From Minisyncoccota bacterium (lineage in GTDB: Bacteria; Patescibacteriota; Minisyncoccia; UBA6257; GWB1-50-10), in contig JAYRXE010000033.1 in assembly GCA_041917695.1 (NCBI GenBank), positions 38,490-102,489 on the forward strand: 64,000 nucleotides of DNA, read 5' to 3'. A program made the translations under genes and the position numbers. Positions 13,338-61,309 of the stretch are shown here, in pieces. A model generated the notes under the pieces. That model was not told the DNA's origin and made no database searches. It was given only the letters and a program-made list of their open reading frames with translations. Numbering within the stretch: the first letter of the stretch is position 1; every line of letters starts with the position of its first letter.

Positions 13338-13366
13338 ACTGCGTCAAGACAAAGAGATGCTTTAAA

Positions 13367-27157: not shown

Positions 27158-27173
27158 TGCAACCCTCGTGCCA
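27158..27173 (-). promoter_or_regulatory. Sigma-54 (-24/-12) promoter, perfect consensus
   Basis: Minus strand TGGCACGAGGGTTGCA equals TGGCACG-N4-TTGCA. Two repeat-family sites lie 50-110 bp upstream. Confidence 0.6.
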
Positions 27174-27224
27174 TAATCCGCTAAAAATCAAACTGTTGAA
27201 AATAAATGGTTTATTCGTTTTCTA

Positions 27225-27272
27225 TTACTGTCAAAAAGGACAGTAATTCAATAACTGACAAAAAGGTCACTT
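27225..27272. promoter_or_regulatory. Two copies of the AACTGNC-N6-GNCA(C/G) repeat family, a candidate enhancer site for the sigma-54 activator and/or terminator hairpins
   Basis: ACTGTCaaaaagGACAGT (6-bp stem) and AACTGACaaaaagGTCAC. The second overlaps the TGA stop of the 27267 gene. Confidence 0.5.
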
Positions 27273-28478
27273 ATTCTTCAGAACGATTTCTATGAAATCT
27301 TCAAGCGGCTCGCCACTGAAAGCCTCCCATACAAGTACCCGCCGATTGGAATAGACCTGACGTAACCGTCGAATCACGTTTTGCTTTACTTCCCGAATCT
27401 CCGGCTCCGGGGACGAGTCGACACCAATCAGGGTGTTCATGGAAGGGATTGCAAAATCTGGCCGAAGGCCCCACCGGTCATCAAAGAGGCATTTTACGAA
27501 GCCGATGCCTGTTTCGCGAAGTTTCAGGGCCAGAGATCGTTCCCCGGTATTTTCTATCGGCATTGGCCAATCGTTTGCGACGATCATCTGAAGAGCGCAT
27601 TTCTTCCAGATTGGCAGTGCGAATTGCTGGTCGTCGAAATCGTTGCGCGCGCCAACGCCGAACAAGAGCCAGGGGCCCACGGTTCCGATGCGTCCGATGC
27701 TGGTCGGCTCAAATGTCGCGCGGTAGGGTTTGTACCTGGGGTTTAGTTCCACAGTCGGGGAAGGGAAGAAGTACGCTGTTCCTTCCGCGGGGCTGTTCAT
27801 CATCTCGGCAAACAACCAGCATTCCGGGGGTAAGTCGATTCTGGTCCACGTCTTCAACCGGTCGTTCAATCCTCGCATTCCGCCCGAGTACAGCTTGAGC
27901 GGAACCCATGAAAAATCGGCCATCGACTGAGATGTTCTGGGGATCCGAATTTTTCTGAGAATTTCCTGAAAGGGATTCCAGAATTCCGAATGGGCCTGCT
28001 TTCCGGTCGGGGTGATCGTTGGTTCAAACGTTCCCCACCCTGCTTCAACGGCCATTCGGTGAAGGGTCGAGAACATCAATTTATTCTTGATGGAATCAAC
28101 CGCGGTCCGTCCTTCGCCGTCACCATCTCCGGTTGCCTCCGGTTTCACCCGGAGAAGGAGTCCGTAGGGGGCTGGCTGGTATGGGTTTTTCCCTCCGCGA
28201 TATTTCCCCGGCTGAATTTCAAAGGTGCAGATCTCGCATTGAATTTCGTCGTCGAAGTCCTGTTTCGGATTTCGCCTCAAAAAGTGAAGATTCTTGCGTT
28301 CGACGACATGAAGGATGCGTCCGCATCGGCAAGAAATCAGTTGTCCGGCCAAGCGGATCTCACCCATCCACTCCTGGGAAATAGGCCAATCCGGATGTTT
28401 CTCGACGAACGCTATTTCTTCCTCGGAGAGAGGACGAATCGCGGCGCTATCCTCGGAACGAAGGAAAGGATCGGGCAT
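27267..28478 (-). CDS. Hypothetical protein with a Cys cluster; last gene of the transfer cluster
   Basis: 403 aa. CRCGRILHV...CEICTF suggests a zinc ribbon. No other motif. Confidence 0.4.
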   Translation of the reverse strand: MPDPFLRSEDSAAIRPLSEEEIAFVEKHPDWPISQEWMGEIRLAGQLISCRCGRILHVVERKNLHFLRRNPKQDFDDEIQCEICTFEIQPGKYRGGKNPYQPAPYGLLLRVKPEATGDGDGEGRTAVDSIKNKLMFSTLHRMAVEAGWGTFEPTITPTGKQAHSEFWNPFQEILRKIRIPRTSQSMADFSWVPLKLYSGGMRGLNDRLKTWTRIDLPPECWLFAEMMNSPAEGTAYFFPSPTVELNPRYKPYRATFEPTSIGRIGTVGPWLLFGVGARNDFDDQQFALPIWKKCALQMIVANDWPMPIENTGERSLALKLRETGIGFVKCLFDDRWGLRPDFAIPSMNTLIGVDSSPEPEIREVKQNVIRRLRQVYSNRRVLVWEAFSGEPLEDFIEIVLKNK

Positions 28479-28481
28479 GGC

Positions 28482-30254
28482 TTATTCGGGAGTTCGACCG
28501 AGTTTTTCTTCGATCTTTCCCCGTTCTTCGGTCGATGACCGGAAATTGCTGACCAGATCACCAAACGAAGAAATCACCGCCTGATGGTATTCCAATTCAT
28601 CAGTTCCCAGTCGGGTCCCGTCTGAAAGGGTTGCCTTGGCGATACGGTGCATCTTTACGACCATCGCCATAAAAGCTGTTTTGTGTTCAGCGAATTCAAT
28701 TGCGTCCTCAGCCGTGATCTCTTCGTCGAGAACCAGCGCGACCAGACTGTCTTCCAGAGTAGTGCAGAATTTTTGAGAATTTGTGTAGCCAATCGTGTCG
28801 TAAAACCTATCCTTATCGAAAGGCTGTTCAGAACTTCCGATAATCGCGGCTCTAAGTTGGTTTCGGTTGGAGATACGGCAAACTTCCATGACCAGTTTCC
28901 GCCCGCCCCCCTTGCCGTTGTTTTTTGAAAAATCGCTGGAGAGGGCCGCTTTCGGCATTCTTCGAGGAGAGATCAGTCGCTGTGCGACAATTGCCTGAAG
29001 GGCCTGGGCGACCTTTGCTCTATTTCCCACCATCTCGATCAGTTTCTGAATGGCGTCGTATGCGGTTGTCGCCGCGTGCATCGTTCCAAGCACAAGATGC
29101 CCGGTCAATGCCAGGTGGACGGCAACCTCGGCGGTGCTCACATCCCTGATCTCGCCAATTGCAACCACATCCGGATCCTGTCGAAGGGCGTTTCTTCCCG
29201 CTTCCGCATAGCTGCGCGCGCACGTACCAATTTCTATTTGCTGAATGGTGGCTTTCTTATGGGAATAAATGATCTCGACGGGGTCTTCAATCGTGACAAT
29301 GTTGACCGGACGCCGTTCGTTCAATTGTTCAATGGTCGCGGCCATTGAGTTTGTCTTCCCGCTCCCGGTTGGCCCGACATACAATACAAGGCCCTGATGG
29401 ATCGCCTGCTGGCAGATGTCTTCCACCAGGCGTTCCCCGACATCGTTGAATCCCAGGCTCCGGACCGACGGTGGCGCCGCCGGAATCTTTCGAATACTTG
29501 CTGCCAGCCCGCGTGCGTTGGGTTCATCCGTAACCACTAAATGGACATTGATTCTTAAACGAGCAAGGAGTTCATTCGACTCTTTTGAGTACACCGAATA
29601 AACGGGATTTACCCCGTCTTCGGGTAAGTGTTTTTCAAAGTTGGGAATTCTGAGACCCTCTTTTTCAAGGTATAAATTTTCAAGATGCTTGAAATAGGTC
29701 GTATTCCTTGTGACTTCACGCAGGAATTCAAGGATTTCCGCTTCGGGCATGACACTGCCTTCTTGAACGGACTCCATTTGTCCTTTCTCGTTGCGGATTT
29801 TGACCTGCCGGTTTGGGAGAATCTGGATGTCGGAGGCTCCGTTATAAACCATCAATTCGATTGTCTCGAACAATCTCCCCGCGGTGAATACATTCGATCT
29901 CTTCGCCGGGGTCCATTCCGAAATCCCTTTTTGGACAAGGCTGATTTCACGTTTGAGCGTCTCAAGAAATGCTTCGTAGGAGTCTCGGGAGTAGCGTGAA
30001 TGAACCGATTCGGGTGGTATGTAGGGCATTTCGAGTAACGCCGTGCTGCCTCGTCCTGCTCGTTTCAATACCTGGTCCAATGGTTCCTTGCTTTTTTCGG
30101 TGTAGGGCGCGACAAAGATATTGACTGATCCTTCACTTCGAATCAGGTGGCCCCCGAGTTCGACCAGGAAGCCGTCAAGATTTTCAGTCTTTGATGCCAA
30201 GATGACGACCTGTGAAGGGCGAAGAAATTGGTTAATTTCCATTTCAATCCTCAT
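28482..30254 (-). CDS. PilT/PilU-like GspE-family secretion ATPase with a ~250-aa N-terminal extension
   Basis: Walker A VGPTGSGKTN. Asp box VTIEDPVEI. Walker B VAIGEIRD. His box TGHLVLGTMHA. No C-terminal tetra-Cys. Confidence 0.8.
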   Translation of the reverse strand: MRIEMEINQFLRPSQVVILASKTENLDGFLVELGGHLIRSEGSVNIFVAPYTEKSKEPLDQVLKRAGRGSTALLEMPYIPPESVHSRYSRDSYEAFLETLKREISLVQKGISEWTPAKRSNVFTAGRLFETIELMVYNGASDIQILPNRQVKIRNEKGQMESVQEGSVMPEAEILEFLREVTRNTTYFKHLENLYLEKEGLRIPNFEKHLPEDGVNPVYSVYSKESNELLARLRINVHLVVTDEPNARGLAASIRKIPAAPPSVRSLGFNDVGERLVEDICQQAIHQGLVLYVGPTGSGKTNSMAATIEQLNERRPVNIVTIEDPVEIIYSHKKATIQQIEIGTCARSYAEAGRNALRQDPDVVAIGEIRDVSTAEVAVHLALTGHLVLGTMHAATTAYDAIQKLIEMVGNRAKVAQALQAIVAQRLISPRRMPKAALSSDFSKNNGKGGGRKLVMEVCRISNRNQLRAAIIGSSEQPFDKDRFYDTIGYTNSQKFCTTLEDSLVALVLDEEITAEDAIEFAEHKTAFMAMVVKMHRIAKATLSDGTRLGTDELEYHQAVISSFGDLVSNFRSSTEERGKIEEKLGRTPE

Positions 30255-30271
30255 TTTTAGGGGGGTGCTAA

Positions 30272-31666
30272 CTACCTGATTTGGTCGTATTCAAGACACA
30301 ATTCGGTGAAAACCGCGTCTCCACTATTAAAATCCAAATCCTTGATTTCTGATTCGAGGAGATGTTGCACGTCCTCGACCGAGACGTTTCCAGCCGCCTC
30401 ACTGTCTGAAAAGAATACACTCCAGAAGATGACGCCGTTTTCGAAGGCAATGCTGCTGTCTGCAATCATGAGCCTCTTGCCGAGCGCTTCGAAAATCCGG
30501 TTGTAACCCTTCTGCAACCGGTCGGCACCGTAAATTCGGATAATCCGTTCCGCGTCATTGGGGTTTGGGCTAATTCTTACAATCATCCCCTTTGCAAAAG
30601 TCTTCAGTTCCTCAAGCGTCGAAAACTCTGGTTTGCCCTTGATTTCATTCATGGATGATCGGCGGTTACGAAAAGCCCCGAAATGTGCTTCGTGGGGCAC
30701 GTTTTCCGGTATTTCCTGAATGCTTTCGTTTTCGGAAAACATTGTATTCACCCTTTCCTGGTGGACTGGCCGAAGGTCCACGTCAGGTTCAACGTTCGGA
30801 ACGATTTCTTCAAAAGAAGCGATTTCAGGTGTTGTCTGGGCAAAGTCCAAGCCTCCGTTGAAGGCAACTCCCACGGGTACTTGTGGCTCCAGTGGATCTC
30901 CGAGGTTTGGGTCAACGGCAAATATCGGTTCTACCTGAAAACGTTCTTGATCGGGTTTTTCGGAAAATTCCATTGGAACAACGAGGTCCGATTGGGCTGG
31001 TTCAAATCCGGGGGCTTGAAATTCACTGGTGCGCCGTTGGGATCTCCGTTCGGCATCCATTCTTAGCCGATTATATTTGAACACCAATGCAAGTGATTTG
31101 TCCTGAAGGGTCTGAATTTCCGATTCTCGGCCCAGGTAGAGCCTAACCACCGATTGCAACGAATCGGCAAGGCTGTTTCTACTGACAGTTGCGGGAAGCC
31201 CCTTCACGACCCCAAGCGCGAGTTTGTCTTTTCGTTCCGCCCGCAAAAGCAGGAGGGCAGTCGTACCGGTGCAGGCTAAAAAAAATAACCCAAGCCAAAA
31301 AAATCTCGATTTTTCTCTGGCTCTTTCATCCGTTCGCCAAATCAGGCCAAGGGTTCCAAGGAATTTTCTTTGGGCAGTGGCAGGTAAGTTTACAGTTGCG
31401 GATCCTTTTTCCAGGTTTGAGTCGATGATCTTTATGAATTCCCCGTCAGCGTCGATCACCTGAAGGTATGCCGAATCGGAAAGTGCGTCTTTTGCTGAGT
31501 TTTCGAACATTTTCCGGTTCGTCTGAAAGTCTTTGATGGTCGATGAAGCCAGCATTGCCTCGGCATCCGAGAAAAGGTTTCTGCCCGTATCGGATTCCCC
31601 GGCAAGAAGGCTCCACCCAATCACGGCCATCATGAGAACAAGAATCGCCAATCCAGTAACTCTCAT
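30272..31666 (-). CDS. Membrane protein with two TM segments; hypothetical
   Basis: TM helices LAILVLMMAVIGWSLL and FFWLGLFFLACTGTTALLLL. Unknown C-terminal domain. Confidence 0.35.
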   Translation of the reverse strand: MRVTGLAILVLMMAVIGWSLLAGESDTGRNLFSDAEAMLASSTIKDFQTNRKMFENSAKDALSDSAYLQVIDADGEFIKIIDSNLEKGSATVNLPATAQRKFLGTLGLIWRTDERAREKSRFFWLGLFFLACTGTTALLLLRAERKDKLALGVVKGLPATVSRNSLADSLQSVVRLYLGRESEIQTLQDKSLALVFKYNRLRMDAERRSQRRTSEFQAPGFEPAQSDLVVPMEFSEKPDQERFQVEPIFAVDPNLGDPLEPQVPVGVAFNGGLDFAQTTPEIASFEEIVPNVEPDVDLRPVHQERVNTMFSENESIQEIPENVPHEAHFGAFRNRRSSMNEIKGKPEFSTLEELKTFAKGMIVRISPNPNDAERIIRIYGADRLQKGYNRIFEALGKRLMIADSSIAFENGVIFWSVFFSDSEAAGNVSVEDVQHLLESEIKDLDFNSGDAVFTELCLEYDQIR

Positions 31667-32937
31667 TTTGTTCCTCCCGCAAGCGTTCCCACGAGTTGGA
31701 GCAGCGGCATGTACATCCCGATCACGATGTAGCCAACAATGATGCCCAGGACAATTTTCATAACGGGTTCGATGAGCTTGACCAGACGTTCCAGGGACTC
31801 GTCGACCAAGCCTTCGAGTTCGCGTTGAAGGTTATCGAGGTCGCCGGTGGAGCCGGTTGATTCGTATTGCTTCAATGAAGCGTAGAGCGGGGTCGTCCTT
31901 CCAAAAGCAGGGTGGTAATCTGCGAGCTTATCAGCAAGGTTTTTCCCATCAATGATGAAGTCGTCCGCTGCCTTCAATGCGGCTGATCGCAGTTCGAGAT
32001 TTCCGATTGAAGCGGCCGCATAGGTGACCGCTTCTTTGATTTCTCCGGTCGCTGAGACCAGTCCACTCAAAACGCCAACGTATTGAAAACCCGCAATGCG
32101 AACGACGATCCGATTGATGACCGGGATTCGAAGCGACCAATAACTTTCCCACTGCTTCACCCTGAAATCCTTTCGTTTCCAATAGGAATAGCCATAGGGG
32201 ATGGCAACACTGAGAATTATCAAAAGCCACCAGTAAGCATCTATAAATTCTCCTAACCATATCAGGGAAGTTGTCACCGGGTTAATTTTGTCGCCCAGTT
32301 GCGCAAACATGTTCTTGAGTACCGGGATAACGAATTTCAACATGATCCCCAAGACAACTCCGGCAACGACGAGAGTCAGAACGGGCAAGATCAATTCGCT
32401 CTTGATGGTCGCCCAGACCTTCGACATTTTCTCAAGAAACCTTACATGCCGTTCAAGCAAACCGGGAACGTACATCCCGTCAACTGCTTGCCCGGAGTAG
32501 TTCCCGGTTTTTTCCGCGGCGGCTATCATCATGAGGGTCGATCCGTCAAAGACGCCCGGAAACTCATAACAGGCTTCGGCGAAGGTAATTCCTTGCTCCG
32601 ACAAATTGTAAAGTTCGGCAAAGAGCAATCCCGCTTTCGGCGGATTGTCCATTAAATAGGCCATTAAATGATTTTTTCCTTCATTGTAGGTCGCACTCAG
32701 GCGATACCGGCGTGACAGGTAATTTTGGACTGTGATTCCGGCTTTCGTCGAATTGACCAGTTCATTCAGAAAACGAATCCGTTCCCGTTCAGACATTCTG
32801 AAATTTTTACGATCATCTTGTCGTTCGGGATCGTCGTGTCGAAGGCGCTCGACTTTGGCGTAATCGACTCTTTTCTGCTTTTCAAACATTATTTTTATCC
32901 TTCCCTCGGAACGTCGATGATTGGCCCGTTTTCCCAT
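31663..32937 (-). CDS. GspF/PilC-type inner-membrane platform protein
   Basis: Two T2SS-F repeats and TM helices LILPVLTLVVAGVVLGIMLKF, WWLLIILSVAIPY and IVLGIIVGYIVIGMYMPLL. The true start is probably MFEKQK at ~32889. Confidence 0.75.
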   Translation of the reverse strand: MGKRANHRRSEGRIKIMFEKQKRVDYAKVERLRHDDPERQDDRKNFRMSERERIRFLNELVNSTKAGITVQNYLSRRYRLSATYNEGKNHLMAYLMDNPPKAGLLFAELYNLSEQGITFAEACYEFPGVFDGSTLMMIAAAEKTGNYSGQAVDGMYVPGLLERHVRFLEKMSKVWATIKSELILPVLTLVVAGVVLGIMLKFVIPVLKNMFAQLGDKINPVTTSLIWLGEFIDAYWWLLIILSVAIPYGYSYWKRKDFRVKQWESYWSLRIPVINRIVVRIAGFQYVGVLSGLVSATGEIKEAVTYAAASIGNLELRSAALKAADDFIIDGKNLADKLADYHPAFGRTTPLYASLKQYESTGSTGDLDNLQRELEGLVDESLERLVKLIEPVMKIVLGIIVGYIVIGMYMPLLQLVGTLAGGTK

Positions 32938-35348: not shown

Positions 35349-35400
35349 ACTGACTTCCGTTCCCCTTTGAAAGTTACGTTCTGAAAATTTGACCCTGGTT

Positions 35401-35979
35401 TCAATCCAGGCTCGTGCCCGGCTCGGGGATGTCCACCGGCATGGAAGCCCGCACCGACATCTTCAACGGACCGAACCCATCGCCTTTGACGCTGAATGCC
35501 TGCACGGTCACCAGTTGCGGAAAATCTGCAAGCCAGTCCCCGAAACTTTTCAGGAGGCTGTATTTCCCCGTGAAATCCTGCTTTTCGGGGGTCAGCAGGG
35601 AAATGACCAGGGGAGAAGCGTTAATTCCCGGCCGATAGGGGGGATGTTGCCCATTGAAATCGAGCTTCAGTTTTCTTGTTTTTGCCGCGGCGTTCATTTC
35701 CAGAACAAATTGACCGAAGTTTTCTTCGGAAGGCAGCCGTTTGCGAAGTTCAACGAACTGGTCACGGATGTCGGCACGCTCTTTTTGCAGCTCTTTGAAC
35801 TTGGTCCGCAGGTTGTTATTACGCTCATTGATCAGTTGTTTTTGACTAACTTTCAATGCCAGGGCATCGTTTTTCGCTCGTTGGTCAGCGATATAGTTGG
35901 TATCGCCCACGTACCAAATCGTAAATCCGATGACTGAGGCCAACGCCGTGGCAAAAATCAATTTTGTCGAAAACTTCAT
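35401..35979 (-). CDS. GspM/PilO-like bitopic assembly protein
   Basis: N-terminal TM LIFATALASVIGFTIWYV, then a coiled-coil and a periplasmic domain. 192 aa. Confidence 0.45.
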   Translation of the reverse strand: MKFSTKLIFATALASVIGFTIWYVGDTNYIADQRAKNDALALKVSQKQLINERNNNLRTKFKELQKERADIRDQFVELRKRLPSEENFGQFVLEMNAAAKTRKLKLDFNGQHPPYRPGINASPLVISLLTPEKQDFTGKYSLLKSFGDWLADFPQLVTVQAFSVKGDGFGPLKMSVRASMPVDIPEPGTSLD

Positions 35980-36647
35980 GCCTGTGCTCCTTCTTGCGTT
36001 TTTACGATTTCAAGCGAAAGGCGAAACTGTTCCCCGTTTTCGGTTCTGCCTTTCAAGCTCACAAAAGCCGAGTGATTGTCGTCAAATGTGATCAGCAGCC
36101 GACCCTCTTCAAGGTAGTTCCGATCAAGGGACCGCCACCCATGCATGGTGATTTTTGCCTTCTCGTGGCCGACCGACTCAGCATAGATTTCGTGACAGTC
36201 GTTCTCGTCCACGAAACCGAGGAATGCGGCCCGATCAGCGTCGTAGGTGATCTCACCAGTCATTTTGCCCTCGGCGAGAAATTTACGCGCGAACCCTTTC
36301 AAGCCATCTCGGGCATCCCTCTTTTGCTTGCCCCAGGTCGGGTCCAAACCATAGGCAAGAGGGAACAGACGCCAGACCTCCCCCGGTTCGAGCTTGATTG
36401 GGGACCATCTGATTTCCGAGGAAATTACCCCTGACGTCCATTTCGACAGCTTTACGAGAAATTCTCTGTCCGAGAACAGTTCGGTCAGTTTTCTCAGTCC
36501 TGCCTCATCCTCGTGGTAACAGGTAATTTGATCTCCAAACTGACGGGATACCAAAATCGAGAACCGAAGTGCGGTCTCATAGTCCAGTGTTTCGGCGAGG
36601 TCGCGGTTTGGAGCAAAGTGCTCTCGAAGAACTTTTAGGTCCGTCAT
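35976..36647 (-). CDS. Hypothetical cytoplasmic protein
   Basis: 223 aa, no TM segment, no motif. Confidence 0.35.
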   Translation of the reverse strand: MTDLKVLREHFAPNRDLAETLDYETALRFSILVSRQFGDQITCYHEDEAGLRKLTELFSDREFLVKLSKWTSGVISSEIRWSPIKLEPGEVWRLFPLAYGLDPTWGKQKRDARDGLKGFARKFLAEGKMTGEITYDADRAAFLGFVDENDCHEIYAESVGHEKAKITMHGWRSLDRNYLEEGRLLITFDDNHSAFVSLKGRTENGEQFRLSLEIVKTQEGAQA

Positions 36648-40520: not shown

Positions 40521-40707
40521 TTCTCTTTTCCCTTTTCTTTGGTTTGAGCGTTGTTTCGGTCAATTCTTTTCGAGAGACCGAGTAAGAGTCGAATCAGGAC
40601 ACTTCGGTCCAGGTTCTCGCCGCCGGGGACTTTTAGTTGCAGCTCTACCAGCTCATCCCGGCTCAGTTTGACCTCGGTTTTCACGATTTCAGTTTGGGGT
40701 TGATCCA
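40517..40707 (-). CDS. Small hypothetical protein, first gene of the secretin operon
   Basis: 63 aa MDQPQTEIVKTEVKLSRDELVELQLKV.... The stop overlaps the secretin start. Confidence 0.3.
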
Positions 40708-54396: not shown

Positions 54397-54408
54397 AGTT
54401 TGTTCACC

Positions 54409-56385
54409 CTAGAATCGGTTCACGCTCGTCATTTGATCGCCGACGGCTCTGCCGGCCGCTGCACCGGCCTCTTCGACAACCCTGCCGATTTCTCTCAACT
54501 GTGAGGCTGTTTCGTTAGCCCTGAGTGTGATGGCATTTGAGGTCAGCGCACCCTGGTATCCAATCTCAGCGCCCGCGAATGCTCCGGCTGCCGTCTGCTC
54601 GGCATTCCGGAGTCTGCCGTCGGCATTCGTCACTTTTTCGCTTCGATCCGCGTCGGTTTTCAGGTTTGCCTGATTTTGAGTGTGATTGATTTGCTGGACC
54701 GATTGAGTCATTGCTCCCCCGGCAGTGGGGGCTAATGGGCGCTCGCCACGACCGATGTCACGATCTCCTTGGCGCACACGCTCCGCGGCATTGGGGACTC
54801 CAACGAACCTTCCACCAAAATCGATAAGCGAATCGAGGGTCGAGGGGATAAAGGAACGGGTCGAGTCGAAGCGACCATAATCAGCTTCACCCTGATTGTA
54901 TTTTTTCTCCGCGTTCGCGTGAGTATTTGCCGCGTTTATGTTGTAGGTATGCTCGGCTTTTGCCCCGCTGAGTTGCCCCGCCGCGCGGGCATTTTCGGCG
55001 TTCCGTTGCGCGAGGGCCGAAACGTTGGCGGCCTTGAATTGACCAACGTTCTGCGCCGAATCCGCCTGTCTTCCAAAGGCGGCACCGGCAGCGGCGGAAA
55101 CTGTCTGGACGCCGGCGCTAATCATTGATCCGGTCCATCCCGCAACGGCGCTTGTGACGGCCGCGAATGCGTCGCCGGTGGTCAAGCGGTACGCAATAAA
55201 AGGCGAGATGACAATGCAGAGGCCCGATATCGCCATCAGAACCGATCCCATCAACGCGACATAGGTTGGGTTCCCCTGGGTGATGACCTGCATCTGTTCC
55301 GGATTCCAGGTATGAACGAGCCGGGTGTCCGCCCAATTTCCCACAAATGCCCCAAATGCCATGTTCCCAATCATGTAGGCCGCTATTTCCAATACCGTGA
55401 TGACGATTGGGAAGATCAGGGTCGCGACGATCACGCCTTTGACGTAATTCATGGCGATGCTGGCCGAGAGGGATTTATTGACCGCCAGGCATGCAAAAAT
55501 TGGGGCCAGAATGCGGAGCGCGGGAATCAGGAAGAGCAAGAGAATCTTGGTTGAGAGCAACCCTACTTCCATAACCCCGCGGCTCAGGGTCAGCATGTTG
55601 AATAGTTCGGTCGGGGTCCAGGTCGATGGATCGAGCCGTGAAAAAAACTGACGCACGAAATTTCCGTCTTTTGGGTCTTCCATAAACGGAATGACTTCTT
55701 CAATCCGGGTTTCTCCCGGCGCGGGTTCGAACTGAATGTCGTTCCCAACCTTCATGAACAGGCCAAGCTCCTGAAATTTCTGATAGTTGTTGTTGAAATC
55801 GTTGCGCCATCTGGCCCGCATTTGCCCAAGGTATCCGCCCCTCAAGTTATCCCCAACCTGTCCGGGGACCACCTGTCCATCAAAGGTAGAGGTAATCTCC
55901 TCTCCAGTACCGTTGGTCAGCCAATATCCGAGGTCGAAAAGGTTGGTGACCAATCCAGGACCCCAGATAATCAGGATGTAGCACGCCACAAATCGAACAC
56001 CCTGATAGGCAATATCGACCGCCTGCCCCTGTGACTCGCGTCCCAGTTGCACCAAAGTGAAGAGCGTCAGGACGCAAATGAAAACACCCGCGATCACCTT
56101 GACGTAGGGGATCAAGGGTCGTTCGAGTTCATTGACGAACAGTGGCAGGTAATACTCGGAGACAGATTTGGACATCTCCGAAAGCGTTCGGGGCAGATTG
56201 ATTTGCGGCAAATCCTTTACCGGTGTGTCTTTCCCGGTTGGGGCTTGGGTTGGGCCGTTGATCTTCCCGCTGTCAACCGATGCCGCTTCCGGATTCCCCT
56301 CGGTGGCCAATGCCGAAACCAGGGGGAACAGCAGACAGGAGACGACGAAAATGAGTGACAAAACCGATTTTAACCATCTGGTCAT
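54409..56385 (-). CDS. VirB6/TrbL-like polytopic inner-membrane protein
   Basis: Six or seven TM helices, then a ~200-aa Gly/Ala/Asn-rich hydrophilic tail. Positioned after the TrbJ-like gene as in trb operons. Confidence 0.5.
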   Translation of the reverse strand: MTRWLKSVLSLIFVVSCLLFPLVSALATEGNPEAASVDSGKINGPTQAPTGKDTPVKDLPQINLPRTLSEMSKSVSEYYLPLFVNELERPLIPYVKVIAGVFICVLTLFTLVQLGRESQGQAVDIAYQGVRFVACYILIIWGPGLVTNLFDLGYWLTNGTGEEITSTFDGQVVPGQVGDNLRGGYLGQMRARWRNDFNNNYQKFQELGLFMKVGNDIQFEPAPGETRIEEVIPFMEDPKDGNFVRQFFSRLDPSTWTPTELFNMLTLSRGVMEVGLLSTKILLLFLIPALRILAPIFACLAVNKSLSASIAMNYVKGVIVATLIFPIVITVLEIAAYMIGNMAFGAFVGNWADTRLVHTWNPEQMQVITQGNPTYVALMGSVLMAISGLCIVISPFIAYRLTTGDAFAAVTSAVAGWTGSMISAGVQTVSAAAGAAFGRQADSAQNVGQFKAANVSALAQRNAENARAAGQLSGAKAEHTYNINAANTHANAEKKYNQGEADYGRFDSTRSFIPSTLDSLIDFGGRFVGVPNAAERVRQGDRDIGRGERPLAPTAGGAMTQSVQQINHTQNQANLKTDADRSEKVTNADGRLRNAEQTAAGAFAGAEIGYQGALTSNAITLRANETASQLREIGRVVEEAGAAAGRAVGDQMTSVNRF

Positions 56386-56411
56386 AATATCTCCGTTCTT
56401 TTCAGGTCGTC

Positions 56412-57551
56412 CTAGCGAGGACCAAGTGCGGGCGCGCTCGGTGCGTCGGGAAGCTCGCTCGGGCCTTCCATGACTGCTCGAAACGCTTTGTCGGCGTCCG
56501 CGTCGAGTTGGCCCATCAACTGTCCCCAGGCTTTCTGGTTCTCGTCGATCTCTTTGCCGGTCTGCATCATGTATTCAAACTTGACCCGGTTTGCGGCGTA
56601 CAATTCGGCTATTTCCTTGAGTTTGTCAGCGATGTCCGCTTTCAGGCCGACTTCCTGGGCCTCAAGCACATCCAGCCGCTTTTGCAGTTCACGCATTCCT
56701 TCCTGGTCTTGTGTCTGAGCGGTCACCGGTGGCGTGTCAGTTGGGGTACTTCCATCTGGAGCAGGTGTACCCACGCCGACCGAATCACCACTCATCCGGG
56801 TCATTTCTTCTTTGCACCGTTTGATCTTCTCCCGGACGTACGCGATTTGCGCGTTCAGGTCTCCATACCTTTCCCAAAGGAGTGCCATTTTCGGGTCTCT
56901 TTCGAGCATGACCCGGCGTTTCTGCTCGGCGGCATATTCTTGGCGGTAAACCCGGTCCATAAAATCGGTCAGGATTGACCATGCTTCACGAGGATTGAAA
57001 GAACTCCCCATGTTGCGTATCCGATTCAAAGTGTCGATGACCGCCCAACGGGTGTTCCACAGTTGCACTCCGGAGGTGTAGAGCTGGCGAGCGGCCTCGA
57101 TGTGGCGAAACCATTTCAGCAAATTTGCTCGGGTTTTTTCATCCAGTCCGAACCGTGCCGCCGTATATTGGTAAATCCCTCGCAGCGTGGTCAGTTGTTG
57201 CACCAACTTTGTGTATTGGGTGATGTGGGCGGTCCAGCTTTGGATTCTGAAAGCCCATTGTTCAGCCAGTTGTTTGTTCCCAATAGCGTTTGCTTCCTTG
57301 GTCGCTTCTTTTATTTTTTCGAGTTTTTCGTTCGTGCTGTCGGCTTTGTCGTTTGCTTTGGCAAGCTTGTCATTTGCCTTGTCGAGCGCCCCGCCCATGT
57401 TTTTGTCAAATGCTTTGACGGCCGTCAGCAATGCCACTCCATCAAAAATGGCTGGTACTTTTTCGGTAAACAACGCTCCCGAGGGGAGGGGCCCGGCGAC
57501 CCAAAACGCACAAAAGGCTGCCATTACGATTGTCTGTACCATTTTTTTCAT
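56412..57551 (-). CDS. TrbJ/VirB5-like secreted coiled-coil protein
   Basis: Signal peptide MKKMVQTIVMAAFCAFWVAG, extended coiled-coil. Position between the VirB4 and VirB6 homologues. Confidence 0.4.
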   Translation of the reverse strand: MKKMVQTIVMAAFCAFWVAGPLPSGALFTEKVPAIFDGVALLTAVKAFDKNMGGALDKANDKLAKANDKADSTNEKLEKIKEATKEANAIGNKQLAEQWAFRIQSWTAHITQYTKLVQQLTTLRGIYQYTAARFGLDEKTRANLLKWFRHIEAARQLYTSGVQLWNTRWAVIDTLNRIRNMGSSFNPREAWSILTDFMDRVYRQEYAAEQKRRVMLERDPKMALLWERYGDLNAQIAYVREKIKRCKEEMTRMSGDSVGVGTPAPDGSTPTDTPPVTAQTQDQEGMRELQKRLDVLEAQEVGLKADIADKLKEIAELYAANRVKFEYMMQTGKEIDENQKAWGQLMGQLDADADKAFRAVMEGPSELPDAPSAPALGPR

Positions 57552-60420
57552 CGTTGTTTCTCCATTTGATCCGCGTAGATGTTCAGGGCCGCAAGGTCCT
57601 CGTCCGTCAGGCGGGTTTTGCGTTCAAAGGCCAAGCCACGCGGGTAACGGTTGGCAAGGAAGGTGATTGCCAGAACCGAGTTCCCCAATTTTTCCCGAAC
57701 CGCCCGCAAGACAGTGACTTCGTTCGGCTCGCTCGTGAACGTCCAGAGGTAGTAATCGGACAGTTCGAGCTGGAAGAGGTCGGACCTTTGGGAAACTCCC
57801 TCCCCGGTCACCATCACGAACTGGGCATGACTGCCGGGGAGGTTCGAAATGTTTTCAATCCCGGCCGCCGCATCCTTTGAGATGGAAAAGTCTGAAATCA
57901 TCTTTGAATAGTCCCCATTCTGGCGACCGATGATTTTCAGACCGACGTGTTCCACGATGTTTTTCAGGCCGTCGACCTGTTTTGCGTTTTGAGCGATGAA
58001 AAGGGTTCGTACGTTTTCTTTTCGGCCCTGAAACGCCCCCTTCGAGATGGCGTAAAGAATCTCGGGGTAATCGCTGGCGATCCGGCCCATCTCGTCAAAG
58101 ATGTTCAGACGGGGAAGGCGTTCACCACCTTTGGACGGACCGATTGCTCGGGTGGTCCGGACGGCAACGCGGTACGCCAGCGACCGCCGAACATCTTCGG
58201 GGAACAGGGCCAAAGACTCCATGTCGTAAACGATCAGCGATGAGTCGGTGAGGTAGGACGGATCCATTCGGTTATCCAGCCAAGGGTTCCCCCTGTAACG
58301 TCGAAGCCGAAGCAGAATATCCTGGGCTTTACCCTTGATCGTTTCGCTGTCGAATGCGCCGCCGCCGCACCATTGTTCAAGGGCTTCGATGAAGTCACTC
58401 AGGATGGGTTCTTTTTTCGATTCCGTTTGAAATGCCCGGTTGTGAGCGCAGGCCCCGGTGTAGACCTCGCGGACCACCGGTTCCAGAATGCCGTCGGCGA
58501 GGCTGTCGTGAATGTCGATGCCGGCAAGGGCTTTCAGGTCACCAAGAACGAGTGTGACCTGTTCTTCCTCGACCGGGAGTCCCTCTCGAAGGCCATCGTA
58601 GTATCCGATGTTGAACCCCTTTTTGATTTTGGGATCGAATTGAAAAAGAAGTCCCCCGGTAACCTCAGCCATTGTTTTGAAACTGTTGAAATCGACGATT
58701 TGAACTTTGGCGGTCGGATGGGTCGCCAAGGTATCGAGGCCCAGGACTCCGGCGAGGACTGATTTCCCCGATCCCGTTTCCCCGAACAGCGCTGTCCCCG
58801 GCGCTCTGGTCGTACCCGCTTCAAAAAGGTCGATCCCCGTCAGTTCTCCGGTCTGAGCGCGAAAAAACGTATGCGGGACGGCGGAGGGCGACCACGCTTT
58901 CTCGACATTGATGAACGTGGCGACCGACTGGGCAATTTCCTCGATTTCACGCCCACTTTTCGATCCCGAGATTTCACCAACGAGCAAGCCGGGATAGAGA
59001 CAGAGCGCAGCCGAACGGTTTTCCCGTATCGCGTTGACGCCGGGAATATCCCGACATGAATTAAGGACGGCCTTGGCTCGGCGATCCAGGGCGTCGCTCA
59101 AGTCTTCGGGCAGTTCTTTTTGTTTGCTGAAGTCCGCGGCTTGCTTCGGAGAGAGAGGTTCGCCGTAAACCAGGATGATTTTTTTGCAGGACATGATCTG
59201 GGTTTGGCCGGTGGCCATGTCTCCGCGAAGCGCGTCCAATTCGGCGATCTGTTGTCCGGCTTCCTTGGTCGCGCCGCCGCCGAAAAGATTTCCGCCGGCG
59301 CGGGTCGTCCATTCAATTTTCCGGTCATACAGTTTACGGCGCTGCATCTGGTCGACGACTTCGAGTTCGGTGACGAACGTATGCCGGAACAGGAGTCGTG
59401 GGTTCATTGAGAGCGGGCGCATCACCGTGGGGAATGTACCCGAACGCTTTCCGTCACCCGAGGATTGGGGCGGCGTTGTCATCGAGACGATGGCGACTGG
59501 AGTCCGGCCATGAACGATGGCATCGTCGCCGAACACAATTCTTTCGTCGGAAAGGTAGCGACCGATGTCGTCGGTGATACTCGGTGTTCGTGGAGATGAG
59601 ACTGCCAATTCGTTATGGCTGAAAAAAATCGCGTCCCACAATTCCGAGGATGTGAATCGGCGAATTTCAAAGGGGCAGTTTCGGAGGACCTGTTGAAAAA
59701 TATCTTCGGCTTTTTTTCGTGCGGCATTTTCTTCGGCGATCATTCTCCGGACGAGTTCATTTTCCTGGAGGCAGTCCAGGATAGCTTTCACATCAAACCT
59801 GCCCCGAGTTTTCAGGACAGTTTTCACTTGGAGCATCATCTCGTGGAATGCCAGTTTTATCCCCGGACTGAGCGTCCCCGTTGGAACCCGTACCCACAGG
59901 GTATGCCTCGAACTTTTGAATTCACCGGATTCGATTTTTGCGTTCAAATATTTCAGGTTGCGGGCATGAAGTTCTTGGCAGGCCCCAACCTTTTTTGAGG
60001 GGGATAAACGAGAAAGGTGGTTTCTTAAATTTGTTCCCTCGTCGATATTTACGGACTGTCTGAATTGATAAATCGTCCCGACGGGAGCCTCATTGGTGAG
60101 CCACGTCACCGTGCGCCGGTGATCTTCAGCGATGGTGTCATCGTGGGCAAAAAGGCTCTCCATCGGGGTTAATTCAAAACCGGCGACAAATGCTCCATCC
60201 GTTTGGCGAATGGCGTTTCTGTCGACGGAAAGGCAACGACTTTCCAGGCGGTGTCCATTCGGCGCCTTTCCGGGAACCAAGGGGAGGTCGCCGGCGCCAG
60301 GCGCGAAGAGATCGCGTAAGGCGGGAATTGCGGCGCGTGATGCTTTCATCGAGAAGTAGGTGCTGAAAGCAGCGACCCCCGTGTAGCTTAGTCCCATCAG
60401 AATTTCGTCAATGCCGTTCA
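57548..60420 (-). CDS. VirB4/TrbE conjugative T4SS ATPase
   Basis: Walker A GETGSGKSVLAG. Walker B LNIFDEMGRI. ~950 aa. ATGA overlap with the virB3 stop. ATG at 60418-60420 (MNGIDEILMGLSYTG...). Confidence 0.85.
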
Positions 60421-60744
60421 TTGTTCTTGTATCCAGTTTCTTGGCTTGATTTGGTTTGGTCGGTCGAATTGCTTCGGCGAAACCAGGTAACGGAAGAAAT
60501 GGTGAGCAAACCGTCTGGGTTTCCCAATCCTTGCCCATGCAAAAAATCCGGAAACCCCGCAGAAACTCCCGATGGCAACCAGATACCAGGCCGGAAATCC
60601 TGCCACCATCGTTCGAGCAAACCAGAAGGGAAGCGTGACCAGAAAGGTCAGGATCAGGACGATTGGCCAATCCTCAATGGCTACGCCAAAACGAATCACC
60701 GGTTGGAAGATCATCGGTCGAACAGGGTACGTTGGTTTTGACAT
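60418..60744 (-). CDS. VirB3/TrbD-like small membrane protein
   Basis: 108 aa with two TM helices (WPIVLILTFLVTLPFWF, LVAIGSFCGVSGFFAW). Sits between the pilin and VirB4. Confidence 0.6.
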   Translation of the reverse strand: MSKPTYPVRPMIFQPVIRFGVAIEDWPIVLILTFLVTLPFWFARTMVAGFPAWYLVAIGSFCGVSGFFAWARIGKPRRFAHHFFRYLVSPKQFDRPNQIKPRNWIQEQ

Positions 60745-60761
60745 AGCCCGGTCTCCAGACC

Positions 60762-61136
60762 TTAGAAATTCAAACCAGGGATCGGGGCGGATTCGCCTCG
60801 ACCGATGAGAGTACCCAGCGCCTGCCAGCCCTCATACGTGAGCAAGCAGACTCCGATGGCCATTGTCTTCCAACCACCTGAATTGAAGGTCATGAGTCCA
60901 TACAGGAAAAAACAGACCCCGGCGATGGCCGCCACGTAACGGGCGATGATCAACAGGGTTCTGCCAGAGTTGAGGGGGGCTGCCGGGTTGCCGGTGAAAA
61001 CCGACCCTTGCGCGAAGACGTGATTGAGTGACCCGAGTGCGACGACGAGTGCGACGACGACACAGGTGCGAAGTACGGCTTTGTGGAGATCAGGCGAGGC
61101 AAGGTAACCCGCCAACCTTTTGAGCTTGAACTTCAT
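60762..61136 (-). CDS. VirB2/TrbC-type conjugative pilin
   Basis: Long leader ending VFAQG. Mature part has two hydrophobic helices LLIIARYVAAIAGVCFFLYGLM and TMAIGVCLLTYEGWQALGTLIG separated by TFNSGGWK. AAGGAG RBS 7 nt upstream of ATG 61134-61136. Confidence 0.7.
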   Translation of the reverse strand: MKFKLKRLAGYLASPDLHKAVLRTCVVVALVVALGSLNHVFAQGSVFTGNPAAPLNSGRTLLIIARYVAAIAGVCFFLYGLMTFNSGGWKTMAIGVCLLTYEGWQALGTLIGRGESAPIPGLNF

Positions 61137-61156
61137 AGCGACGCTCCTTGAAAAAA

Positions 61157-61186
61157 GTATGGGCGGTGCTCCCGCGCCGCCCATAC
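61157..61186. promoter_or_regulatory. GC-rich inverted repeat between the sigma-54 promoter and the pilin start
   Basis: GTATGGGCGG-tgctcccgcg-CCGCCCATAC (10-bp stem). It overlaps the expected transcription start. Confidence 0.45.
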
Positions 61187-61189
61187 CTA

Positions 61190-61206
61190 ATCAAGTTGTG
61201 TGCCAG
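61190..61206 (-). promoter_or_regulatory. Sigma-54-like -24/-12 promoter candidate for the pilin/VirB/giant-gene operon
   Basis: Minus strand CTGGCACACAACTTGAT has TGGCAC-N5-TTGA, with -12 GA instead of GC. Upstream of it lie the tandem 29-bp repeats and a gene encoding a GAFTGA activator. Confidence 0.45.
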
Positions 61207-61251
61207 AGTTTTCTCTCGCCCTAAACTATTGAAAAATAAGGAATCTTGATT

Positions 61252-61309
61252 CTTCTAAAACTGTCGAAAGTGTCACTTATTTCTAAAACTGTCGAAAGTG
61301 TCACTTATT
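61252..61309. promoter_or_regulatory. Two perfect tandem 29-bp direct repeats, a candidate enhancer for the adjacent sigma-54 activator
   Basis: TTCTAAAACTGTCGAAAGTGTCACTTATT appears twice. It is 45-115 bp upstream of the -24 element, and the second copy overlaps the TAA stop of the activator gene. Confidence 0.7.

What the first reader, a model, noticed from the sequence alone, without database searches (positions are those of the whole stretch)
27158..61309. Three sigma-54 promoters, each preceded by members of one 22-bp repeat family: a self-contained RpoN regulon on a mobile element
Three -24/-12 elements lie on the minus strand. They are at 27158-27173 (perfect TGGCACG-N4-TTGCA), 41324-41339 (TGGCACG-N4-TTGT) and 61190-61206 (TGGCAC-N5-TTGA). 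Each sits 45-110 bp downstream of copies of a related motif AACTG(T/A)C-[AG]AAA(A)G-G(A/T)CA(C/G). These occur as two tandem 29-bp repeats at 61252-61309, a perfect 22-bp palindrome pair at 41391-41442, and two copies at 27225-27272. The cluster begins with a GAFTGA enhancer-binding protein. This implies the element carries its own activator and enhancer system driving the pilin-to-giant-gene operon, the secretin-to-PilT operon and a 60-aa membrane protein gene. Sigma-54 control of a conjugation-like system is unusual.
Basis: seen in the sequence. Interest (0 to 1): 0.7.

Follow-up and report, generated by a model that had tools for sequence, protein, structure and literature searches.

The report
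Sigma-54 regulon controlling plasmid transfer genes
A probable conjugative plasmid from an uncultured bacterium carries its own sigma-54 activator protein and textbook activator-site / bend-site / promoter modules in front of its DNA-transfer operons, so one switch that depends on the host's sigma-54 probably turns on the whole transfer machinery; the mechanism is ordinary, its use for conjugation has not been described as far as I could find.

Summary
Three minus-strand -24/-12 elements (27173-27159, 41339-41325, 61205-61191) each lie behind two copies of an 18-bp dyad, A(C/G)TG(A/T)C-N6-G(A/T)CAGT. The dyad centres sit 76.5-77.5 and 103.5-105.5 bp upstream of the -12 position. An IHF-like WWTCAANNNNTTR site sits 36-37 bp upstream. 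The six dyads are the only perfect copies in 64 kb (about 0.02 matches expected), and no composite site arose in 1000 simulated windows.

The only related element found has an activator 47% identical to this one. It has four sigma-54 promoters with the same geometry at orthologous positions. Its dyad is different (ATTCCK-N6-MGGAAW), and the C-terminal helix-turn-helix-like segment of its activator has diverged. That covariation argues that the GAFTGA activator encoded at 61305-64000 binds these sites.

The targets are a VirB2/B3/B4-like operon ending in a 4243-aa relaxase-primase-methylase-helicase gene, a secretin/PilB/PilC/PilO-type operon, and a small membrane protein gene. In the relative there is also a lytic-transglycosylase-to-VirD4 operon.

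This is a canonical enhancer-binding-protein regulon in an unreported setting. Sigma-54 itself is not on the element. P2 and P3 have non-consensus -12 elements, and nothing has been tested experimentally.

The parts
61305..64000 (-). Enhancer-binding protein (activator) gene. 846 codons are visible; the full protein P0001 is 910 aa and its start lies about 37 nt beyond the window end. It has an N-terminal domain of about 570 aa of unknown type, an AAA+ sigma-54 interaction domain with GAFTGA, and a C-terminal helix-turn-helix-like segment.
   Evidence: Pfam PF00158 at E=2.5e-64. The GAFTGA, Walker A (GETGTGKE) and Walker B (LFLDEIGE) motifs are read directly. PDB relatives NifA, ZraR and NtrC1 score about E=1e-64. 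AF2 models three C-terminal helices.
61288..61305 (-). P3 distal activator site (dyad AGTGACACTTTCGACAGT); it abuts the activator gene's stop codon.
61260..61277 (-). P3 proximal activator site (identical dyad, 28 bp from the distal one).
61222..61234 (-). IHF-like bend site TTTCAATAGTTTA; the identical 13-mer occurs in the orthologous promoter of the relative.
61191..61205 (-). Sigma-54 promoter P3, TGGCACACAACTTGA. The -12 element is TTGA, and the ortholog also has TTGA.
41665..61136 (-). P3 operon. It comprises a VirB2/TrbC-like two-TM protein (60762-61136), a VirB3-like 108-aa protein (60418-60744), a VirB4-like ATPase (57548-60421), a 379-aa protein (56412-57551), a 658-aa protein (54409-56385), and a 4243-aa protein (41665-54396) with relaxase-like, NrS-1-type primase-polymerase, Eco57I-type methylase and SNF2-type helicase parts.
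   Evidence: The relative has the same gene order.
41421..41438 (-). P2 distal activator site ACTGTCCTTTCTGTCAGT.
41394..41411 (-). P2 proximal activator site, an inverted copy. The pair forms a 25-bp perfect hairpin just downstream of the giant gene.
41355..41367 (-). IHF-like site AATCAATAACTTA.
41325..41339 (-). Sigma-54 promoter P2, TGGCACGCGGTTTGT. The -12 element is TTGT; the ortholog has TTGC.
27267..40708 (-). Secretin/T2SS-type operon downstream of P2. It comprises a 63-aa conserved protein (40517-40708), a secretin (38703-40520), 184-, 502- and 223-aa proteins, a PilO-like protein (35401-35979), a T2SSE ATPase (32895-35348), a T2SSF platform protein (31663-32937), a 464-aa protein, a second T2SSE ATPase (28482-30254) and a 403-aa protein (27267-28478).
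27254..27271 (-). P1 distal activator site AGTGACCTTTTTGTCAGT; it overlaps the stop codon of the 403-aa gene.
27227..27244 (-). P1 proximal activator site ACTGTCCTTTTTGACAGT.
27189..27201 (-). IHF-like site TTTCAACAGTTTG.
27159..27173 (-). Sigma-54 promoter P1, TGGCACGAGGGTTGC(A), a perfect consensus.
26938..27120 (-). 60-aa membrane protein gene driven by P1, with a GAGGAG ribosome-binding site 8 nt upstream. A roughly 61-aa counterpart with a similar hydrophobic N-terminus follows the orthologous promoter in the relative.

Best explanation
These are three genuine sigma-54 (RpoN)-dependent promoters forming the transfer regulon of a probable conjugative plasmid, switched on by the enhancer-binding protein encoded at 61305-64000.

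Inferred mechanism, following established bEBP biology:
1. Dimers of the activator bind, through a C-terminal helix-turn-helix, to two 18-bp dyads centred about 77 and about 104 bp upstream of the -12 position (roughly -89 and -116 from the start site).
2. The bound dimers assemble into an AAA+ ring.
3. An IHF-type protein bends the A/T-rich site at about -48.
4. The GAFTGA loop contacts host sigma-54 holoenzyme held in a closed complex at TGGCAC-N5-TTG(C/T/A).
5. ATP hydrolysis opens the promoter.

The outputs are a VirB2/B3/B4-like operon ending in a giant relaxase-primase-methylase-helicase gene (P3), a secretin/PilB/PilC/PilO-type operon (P2) and a small membrane protein gene (P1). By analogy with the relative, there is also a divergent transglycosylase-to-VirD4 operon just outside the window.

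The signal is unknown. It is presumably read by the activator's unique N-terminal domain of about 570 aa.

Shown here: the sequence elements, their fixed geometry, their conservation, the covariation of the dyad with the activator, and the identity of the AAA+/GAFTGA domain. Inferred: binding, the IHF role, transcription starts and sigma-54 dependence.
For: 1. Cores and dyads are at the stated coordinates. Perfect dyads occur only at the three promoters, against 0.02 matches expected. There are 3 composite sites against 0 in 1000 simulations.
2. Geometry is identical at all three promoters: dyads at 76.5-77.5 and 103.5-105.5 bp and an IHF-like site at 36-37 bp from the -12 position. All point at downstream genes on the same strand, and the dyads begin at or inside the stop codon of the preceding gene.
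3. The related element L001/L004 (activator 47% identical, same gene order) has TGGCAC-N5-TTG(C/A) at the three orthologous intergenic positions plus a fourth one. Its dyads lie at 76.5-78.5 and 104.5-105.5 bp, and an IHF-like match lies at 36-37 bp at two of these three promoters. The dyad is a different sequence, TTCC-N8-GGAA.
4. Neither dyad type occurs at the other element's promoters. The putative recognition helix differs (IERSMFRKL versus GKTPAYDRL).
5. Across the six aligned promoters, only TGGCAC, TTG and the IHF-like core are invariant. The non-consensus TTGA at P3 is shared by its ortholog.
6. The activator has a full sigma-54 interaction domain with GAFTGA.
7. No better-than-chance sigma-70-type promoter lies in the three intergenic regions.
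Against: There is no experimental evidence. P2 (TTGT) and P3 (TTGA) lack the conserved C at -12. P2 is followed by a leader of about 600 nt that contains a conserved 17-nt block and a sigma-70-like promoter closer to the secretin operon, so P2 may not be the main promoter of that operon. The activator's C-terminal DNA-binding domain is not recognised by Pfam or by Foldseek. No rpoN is visible and the host is unknown. Only two lineages exist for comparison, and their close variants are 99.3-99.5% identical and uninformative. Other conserved small DNA-binding candidates, such as the 63-aa protein, could in principle bind the dyads.
Confidence: 0.8

Rival explanations
1. The -24/-12 elements are real, but the dyads are operators for a different element-encoded DNA-binding protein. 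Candidates are the conserved 63-aa first product of the secretin operon, possibly ribbon-helix-helix, or the XRE-type protein at about 26634-26891. That protein would act as repressor or co-regulator, and the activator would act from solution or from other sites.
For: The activator's C-terminal HTH is not confirmed. The 63-aa protein is conserved in both elements, and its N-terminal segment is also diverged. An XRE HTH gene sits next to P1.
Against: The sites are centred at about -89 and -116 with a bend site between them and the promoter. That is the classical activator geometry, whereas repressors normally overlap the promoter. There are two dimer-sized 18-bp dyads with an A/T-rich centre, as for Fis-type HTH domains of bEBPs (my knowledge). 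The XRE gene is absent from the corresponding place in the relative, which keeps the architecture. The activator is the one DNA-binding candidate that is adjacent to a site pair and conserved in both elements.
Confidence: 0.1
2. Only P1 is a working sigma-54 promoter. P2 and P3 are decayed or very weak because of their non-consensus -12 elements, and the T4SS and secretin operons are mainly transcribed from sigma-70-type promoters.
For: P2 has TTGT and P3 has TTGA at -12. A conserved sigma-70-like TTGACT-18-GATATT, preceded by a 17-nt block identical in both elements, lies between P2 and the secretin operon.
Against: Both promoters keep a perfect TGGCAC, exact spacing, two perfect dyads and the IHF-like site at the same distances as P1. 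The orthologous P3 in the relative keeps TTGA, and the orthologous P2 is a perfect TTGC. This indicates selection, not decay. No sigma-70-like site better than chance lies in front of the P3 operon.
Confidence: 0.08
3. The repeats are a genome-wide REP-type, iteron, parS or terminator element, and the -24/-12 matches are chance.
For: The P2 pair folds into a -39 kcal/mol hairpin just after the giant gene, and so does its ortholog at -30 kcal/mol. It could therefore also act as a terminator or 3' stabiliser. Cores with at most one mismatch are not enriched on their own.
Against: All six copies sit at fixed distances from the three cores and nowhere else in 64 kb. The P1 and P3 pairs are direct repeats and form no such hairpin. 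The plasmid's iterons are a different sequence at 24934-25421. The architecture recurs with a different dyad in the relative.
Confidence: 0.02

Closest known systems
XylR/Pu and DmpR/Po on catabolic plasmids (TOL pWW0, pVI150); from my knowledge of the literature
   Same: A plasmid-encoded bEBP without a receiver domain. Two upstream dyad sites lie about 27-30 bp apart, with an IHF site between them and a -24/-12 promoter. Host sigma-54 is required.
   Different: Those systems control cargo (aromatic catabolism), not the transfer apparatus. Their N-terminal sensor is a known ligand-binding domain, whereas here the N-terminal domain of about 570 aa has no relatives. Their sites lie further upstream.
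Secretion or pilus clusters with an in-cluster sigma-54 activator: VasH (type VI), HrpR/HrpS (type III), PilR-pilA (type IV pili), FleQ/FlrA (flagella); from my knowledge, and one search lists reviews
   Same: A bEBP is encoded with, and switches on, the genes of an envelope-spanning machine. This includes secretin- and PilB-type systems.
   Different: They are chromosomal and are not conjugative DNA-transfer systems. PilR and FlrC are two-component response regulators, and this activator has no receiver domain.
Master activators of conjugative elements: AcaCD (IncA/C), SetCD (SXT/R391), BisDC (ICEclc), TraJ (F), FseA (ICEMlSym); from my knowledge, and the review PMC5812530
   Same: The logic is the same. 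One element-encoded activator has binding sites in front of several transfer operons, so the whole apparatus is off until one switch flips.
   Different: Those activators work with sigma-70 (or RpoS) holoenzyme. The ICE review searched mentions no sigma-54 control of transfer.
Conjugative elements that carry a type IVb 'thin pilus' module with a secretin (IncI1 R64 pil, PAPI-1 pil2); from my knowledge
   Same: A T4SS-based conjugative element also carries secretin, PilB-like ATPase and PilC-like platform genes.
   Different: No prepilin-type pilin or prepilin peptidase was recognised here. There are two ATPases. Regulation by sigma-54 is not known for those systems.

Membership tests
Sigma-54 (RpoN)-dependent promoter | -24 element TGGCAC (GG doublet) with exact spacing to the -12 element (TGGCAC-N5-TTGC). 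| tested here: met
   All three promoters here, and all four in the relative, have a perfect TGGCAC, exactly N5, then TTG.
Sigma-54 (RpoN)-dependent promoter | GC doublet at -12. | tested here: inconclusive
   P1 has GC. P2 has GT and P3 has GA. The GA is conserved in the orthologous promoter of the relative, and the other three promoters of the relative have GC.
Sigma-54 (RpoN)-dependent promoter | Upstream activator sites about 70-150 bp away, often with an IHF site in between. | tested here: met
   Dyads lie at 76.5-77.5 and 103.5-105.5 bp, and WWTCAANNNNTTR at 36-37 bp, from the -12 position.
Sigma-54 (RpoN)-dependent promoter | Transcription depends on RpoN and on ATP hydrolysis by an activator, with a start site about 12 nt after the -12 element. 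| not testable with these tools
   This needs 5'-RACE or reporters in rpoN+ and rpoN- backgrounds. No rpoN gene is among the ORFs of the window.
Bacterial enhancer-binding protein (NtrC/NifA-type AAA+ activator) | Sigma-54 interaction AAA+ domain with Walker A/B and the GAFTGA loop. | tested here: met
   PF00158 at E=2.5e-64 and AAA_lid_14. GETGTGKE, GAFTGA and LFLDEIGE are read. NifA, ZraR and NtrC1 score about E=1e-64.
Bacterial enhancer-binding protein (NtrC/NifA-type AAA+ activator) | C-terminal Fis-type helix-turn-helix DNA-binding domain. | tested here: inconclusive
   There is no Pfam HTH_8 hit even at E<=10. AF2 gives three helices with block-mean pLDDT of 78-84 in the core (61 over the last, short helix) in the expected order. 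Foldseek against the PDB found nothing. The sequence pattern EAERLFILRLL...SWKDVIQLHPGLIERSMFRKLGK resembles the motif (my reading).
Bacterial enhancer-binding protein (NtrC/NifA-type AAA+ activator) | N-terminal regulatory domain of a described class (receiver, GAF, PAS, V4R and so on). | tested here: not met
   Only a TPR_16 hint at E=0.33. No relatives of the N-terminal 570 aa exist among 1.84 billion cluster representatives other than the one sister lineage. This is not required for membership, since bEBPs are modular.
Conjugative type IV secretion system with relaxosome | VirB4-family ATPase. | tested here: inconclusive
   The 957-aa protein hits TraC-F-type (E=2.7e-9) and VirB4_CagE (E=1.8e-8) over the ATPase region, far below the curated cut-offs. 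Walker A GQTGSGKS and IFDEM are conserved. There is no Pfam hit.
Conjugative type IV secretion system with relaxosome | VirD4-type coupling protein. | tested here: inconclusive
   It is present in the relative: TrwB_AAD_bind, T4SS-DNA_transf and TraG-D_C, and NCBIfam VirD4-like at E=9e-42. The corresponding region of this element lies beyond the window end.
Conjugative type IV secretion system with relaxosome | Relaxase. | tested here: inconclusive
   The N-terminus of the 4243-aa protein gives MobL at E=3.9e-4, below the cut-off. It contains HRDTDNPHIHITY, which resembles the relaxase histidine-triad motif (my reading).
Type IV pilus / type II secretion-type machine | Secretin, PilB/GspE-type ATPase, PilC/GspF platform and PilO. 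| tested here: met
   Secretin plus Secretin_N, T2SSE twice, T2SSF and PilO.
Type IV pilus / type II secretion-type machine | Prepilin-type (class III signal peptide) pilin and prepilin peptidase. | tested here: not met
   No Pfam or NCBIfam hit, and no G/FTLIE-type N-terminus among the operon's products. This was a visual and HMM check only.
   There are six perfect copies, all at the three promoters, and none in 42.5 kb of the relative. Matches in metagenomes to the degenerate pair pattern are 9-bp tandem repeats and unrelated palindromes without sigma-54 cores. The full host genome could not be examined.

The most novel reading that the evidence does not exclude
The first conjugation system whose whole transfer regulon is sigma-54-dependent. 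It would sit on a previously undescribed plasmid type in which a very divergent VirB4/VirD4 T4SS is co-regulated with a pilin-less secretin/PilB/PilC module, possibly its outer-membrane conduit or a mating-pair device. Both would be switched by a bEBP with a unique 570-aa sensor domain. The activator's DNA specificity has been re-wired in step with all of its enhancers between two sister plasmids, which would insulate co-resident relatives from cross-activation.
Probability: 0.4. Interest if true: 0.65.

Novelty: new member of a known kind. Interest (0 to 1): 0.5.

Why it matters
Conjugation is usually governed by sigma-70-type activators and repressors. A transfer regulon that hangs entirely on host sigma-54 plus one plasmid-encoded AAA+ activator would give a very tight off-state and an all-or-none switch. 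It would also tie host range to the presence of RpoN. The two sister elements are a natural specificity-swap experiment: same architecture, different dyad, different recognition helix. That makes them useful for studying how bEBP DNA recognition evolves and for building orthogonal sigma-54 switches. The co-regulated T4SS and secretin modules hint at an uncharacterised transfer apparatus in uncultured bacteria. The regulatory mechanism itself is textbook.

Tried and rejected
1. Megablast of 26.9-41.5 kb against PLSDB plasmids found no match.
2. Exact-protein look-ups of the window's activator and ATPase in the assemblies index found nothing on record. One Logan contig (L002) is the same element and starts inside the activator gene, so the region upstream of the activator could not be recovered.
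3. A VirB4-like alignment against GTDB genomes retrieved only a 2.4-kb fragment of the same element in a MAG. The MAG is labelled Actinomycetota and the scaffold is named 'Acidobacteria', so the host remains unresolved. The same alignment against JGI metagenomes found nothing.
4. A DNA pattern for the dyad pair against metagenomes and viral contigs gave 120+ hits. They are (ACTGTCACT)n-type 9-bp tandem repeats or unrelated palindromes. Only two were followed by a loose, TGGCAT-type core-like match (TGGCATTAGATTTGG) and none by a convincing sigma-54 core.
5. The activator profile against 1.84 billion representatives gave only the two known lineages. The next hits score high only because they have two or three AAA+ domains.
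6. Close variants of the relative (L126/L127) are 99.3-99.5% identical with no substitutions in the promoter regions of L126 that were checked, so they are uninformative.
7. Rfam on the whole window found nothing.
8. Foldseek of the C-terminal model found nothing.
9. PHROGs and NCBIfam on the unannotated operon proteins found essentially nothing.
10. Rejected ideas: REP element, iteron or parS (the real iterons are a different sequence), and terminator-only.

Full report
OBSERVATION

- 27173-27159: TGGCACGAGGGTTGC(A)
- 41339-41325: TGGCACGCGGTTTGT
- 61205-61191: TGGCACACAACTTGA

A scan for TGGCAC-N5-TTGC with at most one mismatch finds six sites in the window against 3.55 expected. The cores alone are therefore not significant. 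The three other sites (644, 44744, 51924) lie inside genes and have nothing upstream.

The repeats are best described as an 18-bp dyad, A(C/G)TG(A/T)C-N6-G(A/T)CAGT, with a T-rich centre (CTTTTT, CTTTCT, ACTTTC). It is present twice per promoter:
- P1: 27254-27271 and 27227-27244
- P2: 41421-41438 and 41394-41411
- P3: 61288-61305 and 61260-61277

These six sites are the only perfect matches in 64 kb, where shuffles give 0.02 matches. The 41-kb pair is a perfect palindrome with a 25-bp stem.

ARCHITECTURE

Measured from the -12 position, the proximal dyad centre lies at 76.5, 77.5 and 77.5 bp. The distal one lies at 103.5, 104.5 and 105.5 bp. A match to the IHF consensus WWTCAANNNNTTR lies at 36, 36 and 37 bp.

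All elements are on the coding strand of the downstream genes. The distal dyads start at or inside the stop codon of the preceding gene.

A composite site, meaning a core with at most one mismatch plus a perfect dyad 40-130 bp upstream on the same strand, occurs three times in the window. It occurred zero times in 1000 first-order Markov simulations.

No sigma-70-type promoter better than chance is found in the three intergenic regions.

GENES

The activator gene:
- The gene at 61305-64000 runs off the window. The full protein, P0001, has 910 aa.
- It has a sigma-54 interaction AAA+ domain (PF00158, E=2.5e-64) with Walker A, GAFTGA and Walker B. NifA, ZraR and NtrC1 are its best solved relatives.
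- Its N-terminal 570 aa match nothing: a TPR hint at E=0.33, and no relatives among 1.84 billion representatives apart from one sister lineage.
- Its last roughly 60 aa look like a Fis-type helix-turn-helix by eye. AF2 models them as three helices, with block-mean pLDDT of 78-84 over the first two and 61 over the short third.
- Neither Pfam nor Foldseek confirms the helix-turn-helix.

Downstream of P3:
- a 124-aa protein with a signal peptide and two hydrophobic segments (VirB2/TrbC-like by topology only);
- a 108-aa two-TM protein;
- a 957-aa ATPase with weak TraC/VirB4 matches (E about 1e-8 to 1e-9);
- 379- and 658-aa proteins;
- a 4243-aa protein with a weak MobL relaxase match, NrS-1-type primase-polymerase domains, an Eco57I-type methylase and an SNF2-type helicase.

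Downstream of P2:
- a leader of about 600 nt, then a conserved 63-aa protein;
- a secretin, a PilO-like protein, two T2SSE ATPases and a T2SSF platform protein;
- several unknown proteins;
- no recognisable prepilin or prepilin peptidase.

P1 is followed 39 nt later by a 60-aa membrane protein gene.

COMPARATIVE TEST

Homologues are extremely rare. The activator, the VirB4-like protein and the 817-aa ATPase each retrieve only one other lineage. That lineage was recovered as a 62.9-kb Logan contig (L001 and L004). Its activator is 47% identical and its gene order is the same.

It also shows what lies upstream of the activator. This is a divergent operon running from a lytic transglycosylase to a VirD4-type coupling protein (Pfam TrwB_AAD_bind, T4SS-DNA_transf and TraG-D_C; NCBIfam E=9e-42), followed by ParB.

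The relative has sigma-54 cores at the three orthologous intergenic positions and at the divergent one:
- L004 18216-18230: TGGCACGGAGGTTGC
- L004 4332-4346: TGGCACGCTGGTTGC
- L001 12894-12908: TGGCACGCGGCTTGA
- L001 9856-9842: TGGCACGGTCTTTGC

At the three orthologous promoters, dyads lie at 76.5-78.5 and 104.5-105.5 bp. IHF-like matches lie at 36-37 bp at two of them.

The dyad is a different sequence, (A/T)TTCC-N8-GGAA(A/T), or ATTCCK-N6-MGGAAW in the same 6-N6-6 format. In that element it is again confined essentially to the promoters.

Neither dyad type occurs at the other element's promoters. The activators differ sharply in the putative recognition helix: IERSMFRKL versus GKTPAYDRL.

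In an alignment of the six orthologous promoter regions, only TGGCAC, TTG and the IHF-like core are invariant. The unusual TTGA at P3 is shared by its ortholog, and the IHF-like 13-mer TTTCAATAGTTTA is identical there.

This combination of conserved geometry and lineage-specific site sequence is what is expected if the element's own activator binds the dyads. It is hard to reconcile with chance, a REP element or iterons.

MECHANISM

The steps follow established bEBP biology and are inferred, not shown:
1. Activator dimers bind the two dyads at about -89 and -116.
2. The bound dimers assemble into an AAA+ ring.
3. An IHF-type protein bends the DNA at about -48.
4. The GAFTGA loops engage host sigma-54 holoenzyme in a closed complex at -24/-12.
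5. ATP hydrolysis opens the promoter.

The result is co-ordinate, tightly off-by-default expression of the T4SS-like operon, the secretin/T2SS-type operon, the small membrane protein gene and, by analogy with the relative, the transglycosylase-VirD4 operon. The input signal is unknown and is presumably read by the novel N-terminal domain.

Sigma-54 itself is not encoded in the window. 'Self-contained' therefore applies only to the activator and the cis elements.

CAVEATS AND RIVALS

- P2 and P3 lack the consensus C at -12.
- P2 is separated from the first conserved gene by about 600 nt (about 350 nt in the relative). The only conserved stretch there is a 17-nt block, CAAAAGATAACTTTTTT, followed by a sigma-70-like TTGACT-18-GATATT. 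The secretin operon may therefore have a second promoter.
- The dyads could be bound by another conserved small protein, the 63-aa product. Their position and bend-site context argue for an activator.
- The P2 dyad pair is inverted in both elements and would fold as a strong RNA hairpin immediately after the giant gene (-39 and -30 kcal/mol). It may therefore double as a terminator or 3' stabiliser of the P3 transcript.

COMPARISON WITH WHAT IS KNOWN

Comparisons in this section are from my own knowledge unless a call is cited.
- The module matches XylR/Pu or DmpR/Po on catabolic plasmids: a plasmid-borne bEBP, two dyads about 27-30 bp apart, IHF and a -24/-12 promoter.
- In-cluster sigma-54 activators are well known for type VI (VasH), type III (HrpRS), type IV pili (PilR) and flagella.
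- Master activators of conjugative elements (AcaCD, SetCD, BisDC, TraJ) follow the same 'one activator, many transfer operons' logic but use sigma-70.
- Four full-text searches and a check of a comprehensive ICE review found no report of sigma-54 or bEBP control of a conjugative transfer apparatus. This is absence of evidence in an open-access library, not proof.

VERDICT

Mechanistically this is a new member of a very well-known kind of regulatory system. What is new is the target (a conjugation-like apparatus on a probable iteron plasmid), the orphan sensor domain, and the natural specificity swap between two sister elements. Interest is moderate, at 0.5.

Noticed in passing
window 24934-25421 and 25412-26506: Ten iteron-like direct repeats (core GTCCGTAACCGTGCGCCC) lie immediately 3' of a 364-aa gene with no family match. 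This looks like an iteron-type Rep/oriV, so the element is probably a plasmid. In the relative, the orthologous 355-aa gene directly follows the P1-driven small gene. The sigma-54 promoter may therefore read into rep there.
   Followed up: partly
window 61186-61150 (minus strand): A GC-rich hairpin (ATGGGCGG...CCGCCCAT, -26 kcal/mol, z = -5) followed by a run of T sits right at the predicted start of the P3 transcript, before the ribosome-binding site. It could be an attenuator/terminator or a 5' stabilising stem. It is not conserved in the relative's leader.
   Followed up: partly
window ~40919-40862 (minus strand); L004 ~4518-4570: Inside the otherwise unconserved P2 leader, a 17-nt block (CAAAAGATAACTTTTTT) is identical in both elements. 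It is followed by a sigma-70-like TTGACT-18-GATATT. This may be a second promoter or operator for the secretin operon.
   Followed up: partly
window 41385-41450; L004 4225-4290: Only at P2 are the activator sites arranged as inverted copies. They give a 25-bp perfect hairpin just after the 4243-aa gene, and the arrangement is conserved in the relative. The enhancer may double as a terminator or 3' stabiliser.
   Followed up: partly
window 41665-54396: A single 4243-aa ORF fuses a relaxase-like N-terminus (HRDTDNPHIHITY, weak MobL) with NrS-1-type primase-polymerase domains, an Eco57I-type N6 methylase (NPPFG) and an SNF2-type helicase. A 4237-aa ortholog exists in the relative.
   Followed up: partly
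window 27267-40708 with 54409-61136; L001 735-9807: A very divergent VirB2/B3/B4 plus VirD4 set is co-regulated with a secretin/PilO/PilC/two-ATPase module that has no recognisable prepilin or prepilin peptidase. No VirB9/VirB10-type proteins were recognised. This may be an undescribed transfer-apparatus type.
   Followed up: partly
window 1-19000: The left part is a mosaic of mobile-element debris and defence-type genes with strongly varying G+C (0.32-0.61). It includes a truncated Tn3-family transposase, VapBC, a tyrosine recombinase, TniB, an HsdM N-terminal fragment, a metallophosphatase-AAA protein and an exonuclease-SUKH protein.
   Followed up: no
L031 1-170 (1-kb metagenome contig Ga0172375_10328252): At least five tandem 27-bp repeats, AGTGTCAATTTTGACAGTTTTCTCGAA, closely resemble the window's P3 enhancer unit AGTGACACTTTCGACAGTTTTAGAA. 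No sigma-54 core lies nearby, and they may be iterons of an unrelated replicon.
   Followed up: no
L003 (JAAFHI010000936.1): A 2.4-kb fragment 99% identical to the VirB4-like gene sits in a MAG labelled Actinomycetota, while the scaffold is named 'WN_Acidobacteria'. The host assignment of the element is therefore unreliable.
   Followed up: no
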